Assembly: GCF_963853765.1 (NCBI RefSeq)
Contig: NC_088854.1
Coordinates: 60,016,001-60,080,000, forward strand
Origin: Magallana gigas
Lineage: Eukaryota
Length of the DNA: 64,000 nt
Direction of reading: 5' to 3'
The stretch's first letter is position 1. The number at the start of each line of letters is the position of its first letter. Shown one piece after another: positions 44,320 to 45,046 of the stretch. The translations under genes and the position numbers were made by a program. The notes under the pieces are model-generated. The model was not told the origin of the DNA. It saw nothing but the letters and a program-made list of their open reading frames with translations, and made no database searches.

Positions 44320-44474
44320 AAGAATATGCGTCCCGCATGATTCTACTGTCAGAACAAACAATAAGTAAATAAAAATTAACAAGTCAATATGCCGATGATC
44401 TACAGCATCTTTTCCCTCTTTACAGTGATTGTCTTGCGTCCGTGCTCCCGGACAATGGTTGTTGTCTTGATCGA

Positions 44475-45008
44475 CTAGGTATATACAACTGGGTCTGTCT
44501 GAACAGCCTTATCTGCAACTTTGCACGGGGGGTCATTTGTCTTGTCATCCAGCCTCGGTGTCTTACAACGGTCAGGTGTATACACGGGCATGGGTTGAGT
44601 CCTCTTTCTAACAGTAGGGTCGACGGCTTTCTCACAGGGTGAAGGTCCACTGGTACCCGGTTCTTCGTCAATGGTTATGTCGGGTTCCTGTGAGAGCCAC
44701 TCCTCTTCATCTGAAGACTCGTCCTCGTGGAGATCTCTAGATAAACTATCTTCACTGGATTTAATACCCTCTGCATTATCAGACTGTTGGCTGCCTTGAC
44801 CTCTCTCAACTTCGTCTGGATGGTTTCTCTTAAGATGCCGTATGTAGTTGACTTTCTTATCTGTCGAATAATCACATCGTCTACAAATGTGTCTGGTTTC
44901 ATAACACTCGGCCATGTGGTCTTTCCATTCCGAGTGACTTCTACTTTTAAAGGAACAGAATGGACATTTCTTCAGCTGTTCTGCACTGGTAGTCTTCGTC
45001 TTCGCCAT
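44475..45008 (-). CDS. Accessory ORF of the Gypsy element: two tandem zinc fingers (C2HC and C2H2), acidic linker, KAVQTD motif
   Basis: MAKTKTT...CPFCSFKSRSHSEWKDHMAEC...HICRRCDYSTDKKVNYIRHLKRNH. The ATG at 45008 is 4 nt after a strong acceptor (ttttttttctgttgtag). The frame stays open 24 codons past the TAG, to 44400. Confidence 0.75.
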   Translation of the reverse strand: MAKTKTTSAEQLKKCPFCSFKSRSHSEWKDHMAECYETRHICRRCDYSTDKKVNYIRHLKRNHPDEVERGQGSQQSDNAEGIKSSEDSLSRDLHEDESSDEEEWLSQEPDITIDEEPGTSGPSPCEKAVDPTVRKRTQPMPVYTPDRCKTPRLDDKTNDPPCKVADKAVQTDPVVYT

Positions 45009-45046
45009 TTCTCTACAACAGAAAAAAAACTTGTTGTAAAGACAAT

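What the first reader, a model, noticed from the sequence alone, without database searches (positions are those of the whole stretch)
44400..45030. Spliced accessory zinc-finger gene in an env-less Gypsy element
Seen: downstream of gag-pol, in the position env occupies in retroviruses, lies an ORF with two zinc fingers. Its ATG is 4 nt after a textbook acceptor (T8-CTGTTGTAG, 45014-45013), and a consensus donor CT|GTAAGT sits in the 5' LTR (50571) downstream of a TATA-like box. Inference: a subgenomic mRNA makes a DNA- or RNA-binding accessory protein (transactivator, anti-silencing factor or targeting factor) of unknown function, in an apparently active element.
Basis: partly seen in the sequence, partly recalled or inferred. 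Interest (0 to 1): 0.7.

Follow-up and report, generated by a model that had tools for sequence, protein, structure and literature searches.

The report
Oyster retrotransposon's zinc-finger accessory gene
A freshly inserted jumping gene in an oyster carries an extra, evolutionarily conserved gene for a small zinc-finger protein with a histone-like front end and a dimerising tag, which probably helps the element manage its own chromatin, although this particular copy of the gene is cut short and its splicing is not shown.

Summary
The ORF is real. It follows gag-pol in a very young Ty3/Gypsy element (identical 735-bp LTRs, TSD, intact 1704-aa gag-pol), almost certainly from a Crassostrea/Magallana oyster. 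It belongs to a bivalve family that current annotations call 'REST-like' or 'uncharacterised' host genes. Motif blocks are 50-94% identical between homologues, linkers 15-41%. The blocks are: an H3-tail-like N-terminus, a C2HC and a C2H2 finger with conserved base-contact residues, an acidic W-xx-Q-D-P motif, R-K-x-T-x-P, an LC8-type motif and a beta-hairpin. One sister lineage carries the module fused in frame to integrase.

The acceptor is good.

Best reading (0.5): a nuclear, LC8-dimerised DNA-binding adaptor that protects or activates the element's own chromatin. Rivals are integration targeting (0.22) and Rev-like RNA export (0.15). Ten literature searches found no description of this family.

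The parts
50197..50931 (-). 5' LTR, 735 bp, TG...CA
   Evidence: Identical to the 3' LTR, no mismatch over its length
43572..44306 (-). 3' LTR, 735 bp
50932..50935 (-). Target-site duplication ATAG, 5' copy
43568..43571 (-). Target-site duplication ATAG, 3' copy
50175..50192 (-). Primer-binding site (tRNA-Leu-like; identity recalled, not from a call)
   Evidence: Sequence next to the 5' LTR
45047..50161 (-). gag-pol, single open frame, 1704 aa: Gag, CCHC, protease, RT, RNase H, integrase
44475..45008 (-). Accessory ORF2, 177 aa in this copy (202-213 aa in complete relatives)
44399..44474 (-). In-frame tail beyond the premature stop; corresponds to the conserved C-terminal beta-hairpin of relatives
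44979..45008 (-). N-terminal motif M-[small]-x-T-K-x-T(-x-R-K), in register with histone H3 T3, K4, T6 (R8, K9 in many relatives)
   Evidence: 34 of 44 family members
44904..44966 (-). Finger 1, C2HC; acidic or small residues at the base-contact positions
44820..44885 (-). Finger 2, C2H2; K/R at -1, N at +3, R at +6
44670..44717 (-). Acidic W-x-x-Q-[DE]-P motif in a disordered acidic linker
44568..44621 (-). Basic R-K-x-T-x-P-x-P-V motif
   Evidence: 36 of 45 family members
44493..44513 (-). D-K-A-V-Q-T-D, LC8/DYNLL-type linear motif
   Evidence: consensus as printed in the abstract of PMC3078936
45013..45040 (-). Candidate splice acceptor: branch-like TTTAC, T8 tract, TAG
   Evidence: use not shown
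50566..50571 (-). Candidate donor GTAAGT (chance level; may lie in U3)
50809..50817 (-).
50315..50386 (-). Rival TATA-like box (50386) and ATTAAA (50320)
50429..50519 (.). Four degenerate 24-nt repeats in the LTR (enhancer-like; candidate binding sites)
44307..44319 (-). Polypurine tract

Best explanation
ORF2 is a genuine, purifying-selected accessory gene of a bivalve Ty3/Gypsy lineage. It encodes a small nuclear adaptor that works like a miniature transcription factor on the element's own chromatin. Proposed steps: (1) a subgenomic message using the acceptor at 45013 puts the ATG first (inferred; donor or internal promoter unknown); (2) Met removal frees an H3-like tail, x-x-T-K-x-T-x-R-K, that engages or decoys H3-tail readers and writers (inferred); (3) host LC8 binds the QT motif and, with the hairpin, pairs two chains (inferred); (4) the paired C2H2 fingers read GA-containing sites in the LTR, and the acidic W motif recruits a co-activator (inferred). 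The result is transactivation or anti-silencing. Shown: the ORF, its family, blockwise conservation, link to gag/pol in the relatives that could be checked, and the predicted folds. This copy is truncated and would depend on sister copies in trans.
For: Blockwise conservation against four diverged homologues: N-terminus 78-89%, fingers 76-82%, acidic W block 50-94%, RKxTxP 72-83%, LC8 motif plus hairpin 76-84%, linkers 15-41%. In a 45-sequence family with 22-64% identity to the first row: M-small-x-T-K-x-T in 34 of 44; [TVC]QT[DE] in 26 of 45 (shuffles: mean 1.0, maximum 6 of 45 in 1000 rounds); R[KQ]xTxP in 36 of 45. Finger 2 keeps K/R at -1 (41 of 44), N at +3 (31), R at +6 (38), whereas finger 1 does not. 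AlphaFold2 of a complete relative: fingers pLDDT about 96, hairpin about 90, the rest coil. No hydrophobic segment (maximum KD19 0.29). Many near-identical annotated loci per genome in C. angulata, C. virginica and O. edulis, as expected of mobile cargo. Joined to Gag or Pol in P0035, P0042, P0051, P0205 and P0270-P0273.
Against: No junction read in 4 of 4 runs, at low depth. The donor is at chance level. H3 R2, part of the published definition of H3 N-terminal mimics, is absent in 44 of 44. T-P-R-K could instead be a CDK site or a minor-groove arm (recalled). Many TQT-containing peptides do not bind LC8 (PMC6607443). The motif counts come from related sequences chosen with a profile that holds the motifs, so they are not independent. 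One lineage has the module fused to integrase without the LC8 motif, which buries the N-terminus unless it is also made separately. A single DNA-reading finger gives little specificity. Linkage to an element was not checked for most of the 45 members.
Confidence: 0.5

Rival explanations
1. Integration-targeting or tethering cofactor. The module brings the intasome to chromatin or to particular DNA sites, like the chromodomain at the integrase end of chromoviruses; in most lineages it is supplied as a separate protein.
For: 22 proteins from 4 clusters read without a stop from the integrase C-terminal motif into the module, including 8 of 15 listed members of one cluster at 1929 aa. Fused-type modules form one side of a branch (SH-aLRT 99, quick tree). 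The H3-like tail and fingers suit chromatin contact.
Against: Fused forms keep the Met and the N-terminal motif, as if also made separately. The fusion is confined to one branch of 50 rows. A related element without the module is complete (L002). No insertion-site data were available.
Confidence: 0.22
2. Rev/CERV-like RNA factor. It is made from the spliced message, binds the unspliced genomic RNA through its fingers and basic motif, and promotes its nuclear export or switches splicing.
For: A strong acceptor inside the genomic RNA creates the retention problem that CERV solves for Cer1 in C. elegans (PMC10309623). C2H2 fingers can bind RNA (recalled: TFIIIA).
Against: Finger 2 conserves classic DNA base-contact residues. 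CERV has three folded domains and a Cys loop, unlike this mostly disordered protein. The H3-like tail is not explained. No structured RNA family was found in the element.
Confidence: 0.15
3. Captured host zinc-finger fragment or by-product of pol that drifts neutrally.
For: This copy has a premature stop, and 6 of 26 close relatives examined do not read through that region. Databases name some members 'REST-like' host genes.
Against: Blockwise conservation across genera, open frames in most copies, shared architecture at about 26% identity.
Confidence: 0.03

Closest known systems
CERV of Cer1 (C. elegans Gypsy; PMC10309623, abstract and passages read)
   Same: Nuclear accessory protein of a Gypsy element from a spliced message, with an acceptor before the initiator ATG and a Cys-rich part
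   Different: CERV is 517 aa, shares sequence with Gag, has three folded domains and exports RNA; ORF2 is a separate ~200-aa gene after pol with C2HC/C2H2 fingers and linear motifs
[quoted passage not shown]
   Same: Position, orientation, probable expression through a splice acceptor
   Different: Those are described as membrane or env-like proteins; ORF2 has no hydrophobic segment and looks nuclear
H3 N-terminal mimicry proteins (PMC8166343, abstract and passages read); SNAG-domain zinc-finger factors (recalled)
   Same: Small residue after Met, K4 in register, disordered N-terminus, often on zinc-finger proteins
   Different: No R2; adds T3, T6, R8, K9; encoded by a retrotransposon; binding untested
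LC8-client zinc-finger or silencing proteins, ASCIZ and Panoramix/PICTS (search listing and abstract starts)
   Same: QT motif in a disordered region; zinc fingers (ASCIZ); transposon-chromatin context (PICTS)
   Different: Host proteins; PICTS silences transposons, whereas this motif is carried by the transposon
GAGA factor (recalled)
   Same: One DNA-reading finger with N+3/R+6, a basic arm, and multimerisation
   Different: No BTB domain; preceded by a C2HC finger; no sequence evidence of kinship
Chromoviruses (recalled)
   Same: A chromatin-type module at the integrase C-terminus, in the fused sister lineage
   Different: No chromodomain; in this element the module is a separate ORF

Membership tests
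Ty3/Gypsy LTR retrotransposon | LTRs TG..CA, TSD, PBS, PPT | tested here: met
Ty3/Gypsy LTR retrotransposon | Order protease-RT-RNase H-integrase | tested here: met
   Pfam hits at residues 464, 793, 1016-1144, 1282-1453
Named mollusc Gypsy clade (Mag C-clade or MolGy; PMC6238403) | RT/RNase H phylogeny with reference elements | not tested
Env or env-like ORF | Transmembrane segment or fusion-protein homology | tested here: not met
   Maximum 19-residue hydropathy 0.29; only zinc-finger Pfam hits of note
Classical C2H2 DNA-binding finger | Ligand spacing and beta-beta-alpha fold | tested here: met
   44 of 45 have the spacing; model pLDDT about 96; profile hits CTCF and other C2H2 structures
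Classical C2H2 DNA-binding finger | Tandem array with TGEKP-type linkers | tested here: not met
   One C2H2 finger after a C2HC finger, no such linker
Classical C2H2 DNA-binding finger | Sequence-specific DNA binding | not testable with these tools
   Only residue conservation at -1, +3, +6
H3 N-terminal mimicry proteins (M-Z-R-x-K, PMC8166343) | Small residue after Met | tested here: met
   42 of 44
H3 N-terminal mimicry proteins (M-Z-R-x-K, PMC8166343) | Arginine at position 2 | tested here: not met
   0 of 44; K, N or Q instead
H3 N-terminal mimicry proteins (M-Z-R-x-K, PMC8166343) | Lysine at position 4 | tested here: met
   37 of 44
H3 N-terminal mimicry proteins (M-Z-R-x-K, PMC8166343) | Binding to H3 readers or modification by H3 writers | not testable with these tools
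   Needs peptide assays
LC8/DYNLL clients | [D/S]-K-x-[T/V/I]-Q-[T/V]-[D/E] in a disordered region | tested here: met
   Full match at residues 166-172, coil in the model; 26 of 45 strict, 38 of 45 loose
LC8/DYNLL clients | Physical binding to LC8 | not testable with these tools
Spliced accessory gene (CERV/Rev-type expression) | Junction-spanning RNA | tested here: inconclusive
   None in 4 of 4 runs, about 2 reads deep at the acceptor
Chromovirus | Chromodomain at the integrase C-terminus | tested here: not met
   No chromodomain among 19 Pfam families hit by gag-pol

The most novel reading that the evidence does not exclude
A widespread bivalve Gypsy lineage encodes its own histone-H3-tail mimic on an LC8-dimerised zinc-finger protein. 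The protein decoys or redirects host H3K4/K9 readers and uses the same LC8 hub that piRNA-guided silencing uses in flies. It would be a transposon-encoded histone mimic and anti-silencing factor in an animal, switchable in evolution between a free protein and an integrase-fused targeting module, and now hidden in annotations as 'REST-like' host genes.
Probability: 0.25. Interest if true: 0.85.

Novelty: new variant of a known kind. Interest (0 to 1): 0.62.

Why it matters
Regulatory accessory genes are well known in complex retroviruses but thinly documented in animal Gypsy elements; Cer1 CERV was the one worked example my searches returned. This is a compact family with separable, testable motifs, spread over oysters, a pearl oyster and a scallop. 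It would show how an animal retrotransposon handles host chromatin without env, and the free and integrase-fused forms offer a natural comparison for the origin of targeting modules. In practice, many bivalve 'RE1-silencing transcription factor-like' or 'uncharacterised' gene models appear to be this retroelement cargo, which would distort gene-family counts and expression studies.

Tried and rejected
No whole genome is held for this window, so copy number, insertion sites and codon-level dN/dS could not be computed. Five variant positions inside ORF2 gave 2 synonymous and 3 non-synonymous changes, too few to use.

DNA context of relatives: metagenome scans and viral scans confirmed no locus. 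The genome scan gave 6 loci, none with an ORF2 profile hit of note (best E 0.075). L001 and L003 end before the region; L002 is a related element lacking the module.

Fold searches gave no specific match: Foldseek had no hit at E<=0.001; VIA-align best Z 4.3 for the fingers and 4.2 for the beta-meander of a fused-type, probably truncated protein. The hairpin was not searched alone. The Atlas gave only generic or unnamed zinc-finger clusters. Rfam and ARAGORN found nothing. Complex prediction of the hairpin was not available, so self-association is open.

In-frame residues upstream of the Met in relatives (F/L-rich, then C/F-R/S) fit a pyrimidine tract plus AG, but many dipeptides can encode that, so I count it as a hint only. 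RefSeq models that begin at this Met are also only a hint, as exon structures were not visible. The upstream in-frame ATG at 45074 was rejected as the start: conservation begins at 45008. Stop read-through at codon 178 was rejected because relatives have no stop there. The careful tree did not finish; the quick tree is quoted. Earlier scan notes on other zinc-finger cargo in fungal and protist Gypsy elements concern different proteins, and sequence and place look-ups found nothing.

Full report
1. What is in the sequence. The element lies on the - strand. Its LTRs (50931-50197, 44306-43572; 735 bp, TG..CA) are identical and flanked by the duplication ATAG. A PBS, one open 1704-aa gag-pol frame with Gypsy domain order, and a PPT are present. 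So the insertion is very recent. It sits inside an inverted-repeat DNA element. A named relative of ORF2 from Crassostrea angulata is 98% identical, so the host is almost certainly a Crassostrea/Magallana oyster (inference).

2. The observation. ORF2 starts at 45008, 38 nt after the pol stop and 4 nt after a good acceptor (branch-like TTTAC, T8, TAG). That is the only T>=7 run in the internal region. The two fingers are there: C2HC, then C2H2. Of 41 members in the four closest clusters, 26 were listed and examined; 20 of 26 read past that point and 15 of 26 are complete from N-terminal motif to C-terminus. Contigs of two RNA-labelled runs and the single read covering it also differ from the window at this codon. 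The stop looks private to this copy or to few copies.

3. Splicing. The donor hexamer is at chance level (42% of 1000 shuffled LTRs). The LTR can be read a second way: TATA-like box at 50386, ATTAAA at 50320, and four 24-nt repeats at 50429-50519 upstream of that box. I laid 4 of 24 listed runs. No joint ended at the acceptor, and one contig in each contig set crosses it unspliced. The raw-read runs gave only 70 and 5 reads, on both strands, so this neither supports nor refutes splicing. Depth over ORF2 in the better run was about 1.5-2.4 against 0-1.1 over most of pol, which 3' bias could explain. Hints only: some annotated models begin at this Met or splice onto this site, and residues upstream of the Met in relatives fit a pyrimidine tract.

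4. The family. Searches found 14, then 26 close relatives. A profile scan gave 411 hits at E<=0.001, of which 150 were listed; many are generic multi-finger proteins. I printed 62 of these and chose by eye 45 mostly full-length sequences, eight of them from the earlier searches, for alignment A2. Named members come from C. gigas, C. angulata, C. virginica, Ostrea edulis, Saccostrea cucullata, S. echinata, Pinctada imbricata and Mizuhopecten yessoensis. Entries under 'Ca. Thiodiazotropha' are probably host DNA (inference). Single genomes hold several near-identical annotated loci, for example 6 listed in O. edulis and 6 in C. angulata for two distant subfamilies, named 'REST-like' or 'uncharacterised'. 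Against four diverged homologues, motif blocks are 50-94% identical and linkers 15-41%, which is the pattern of purifying selection.

5. Link to the element. Gene models join ORF2 relatives to Gag or protease (P0035, P0042, P0051, P0205). A search for longer forms returned 10 proteins, 4 of which are Pol polyproteins 51-53% identical to the window's and end in the module. Counting their cluster members, 22 proteins read without a stop from the integrase C-terminal motif into the module's Met; 8 of 15 listed members of one cluster are 1929 aa long. These are gene calls on unnamed contigs whose DNA I could not see. Fused-type modules keep the Met, N-terminal motif, fingers and RKxTxP block, lack the LC8 motif, have a longer beta-rich end, and form one side of a branch in a quick tree. 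A related element at 42-45% Pol identity lacks the module (L002). For most family members the genomic context is untested.

6. Anatomy. AlphaFold2 on a natural complete relative gives confident fingers (pLDDT about 96), a C-terminal hairpin (about 90) and coil between them. (a) N-terminus: M-small-x-T-K-x-T in 34 of 44, with R8 in 21 and K9 in 20. Mean identity to H3 residues 1-9 (recalled) is 3.8 of 9, against 0.6 for internal 9-mers. The window's own subfamily lacks R8/K9. R2, required by the published mimic definition (PMC8166343; abstract and passages), is never present. It works like an H3 tail at best and is not a member of that class. (b) Finger 2 keeps K/R-1, N+3 and R+6, which by the usual recognition rules (recalled) read a GA-containing triplet; finger 1 is acidic there and is probably structural. 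(c) An acidic W-x-x-Q-D-P motif (strict 20, loose 30 of 45) and R[KQ]xTxP (36 of 45) have no partner I can name. (d) D-K-A-V-Q-T-D matches the LC8 consensus printed in PMC3078936 (abstract start); 26 of 45 members hold the strict core against a shuffled mean of 1.0. PMC6607443 (passages) warns that many such peptides do not bind. The sequences are related and were found with a profile holding these motifs, so the counts show conservation, not independent origins.

7. Mechanism. The most economical reading is a miniature, LC8-paired transcription factor made from a subgenomic message. It binds the LTR through finger 2 and engages chromatin proteins through the H3-like tail and the acidic motif, to activate or shield the element (0.5). 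The conserved small residue after Met argues that a free N-terminus matters, which needs a message that starts at this ATG. The integrase fusions keep integration targeting alive (0.22). The precedent of Cer1 CERV (PMC10309623; abstract and passages) keeps RNA export alive (0.15). Neutral cargo is very unlikely (0.03). All functional steps are inferred.

8. Novelty. Extra ORFs after pol are a known kind (PMC7264820, first of three parts read). Ten full-text searches returned no description of this family or of histone mimicry by a retrotransposon protein. Passages of the mollusc LTR survey PMC6238403 held no 'zinc finger' or 'additional ORF'; two reviews checked by passage gave nothing either (PMC13269885, PMC13165374). 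The library lacks most subscription papers and Repbase, where oyster Gypsy entries may note a second ORF, and I opened no supplements. Verdict: a new variant of a known kind, interest 0.62; the bold case (histone mimic and anti-silencer) has probability 0.25 and would merit 0.85.

Noticed in passing
window 3287-12915 and beyond, - strand: A second, older LTR element (LTR copies 99% alike over at least 300 nt) with gag-pol in several pieces and an env-like region in pieces at 6789-4323; the piece 5842-6426 hits Pfam Baculo_F above its cut-off (E 2.3e-8). An F-type env in an oyster Gypsy-like element.
   Followed up: partly
window 43171-43576 and 51478-51875; 50940-51469: The element is inserted in a DNA element with long inverted arms and several internal palindromes.
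   Followed up: no
proteins P0270-P0273 and their clusters: Gag-Pol-ORF2 single frames of about 1930-1980 aa whose last ~80 residues form a beta-rich domain not matched to a known fold.
   Followed up: partly
window 50283-50299 and 50426-50443: Two perfect 8+8 palindromes in the LTR, built on the same core as the 24-nt repeats; candidate sites for a dimeric factor.
   Followed up: no
window 1099-2993, - strand: Broken frames, one hitting DUF7869 (E 3.6e-10); looks like a transposase remnant (the transposase reading is inference).
   Followed up: no
window 16539-18827, + strand: A 762-codon open frame with a weak VPS9 hit at its end (E 0.009).
   Followed up: no
L001, L002, L003; P0140, P0179, P0308: Gypsy sequences sit in assemblies filed as bacterial symbiont genomes, most likely host-animal contamination.
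   Followed up: no
window 27386-27565 and 36307-37056: Tandem arrays with 20-nt and 55/57-nt periods.
   Followed up: no
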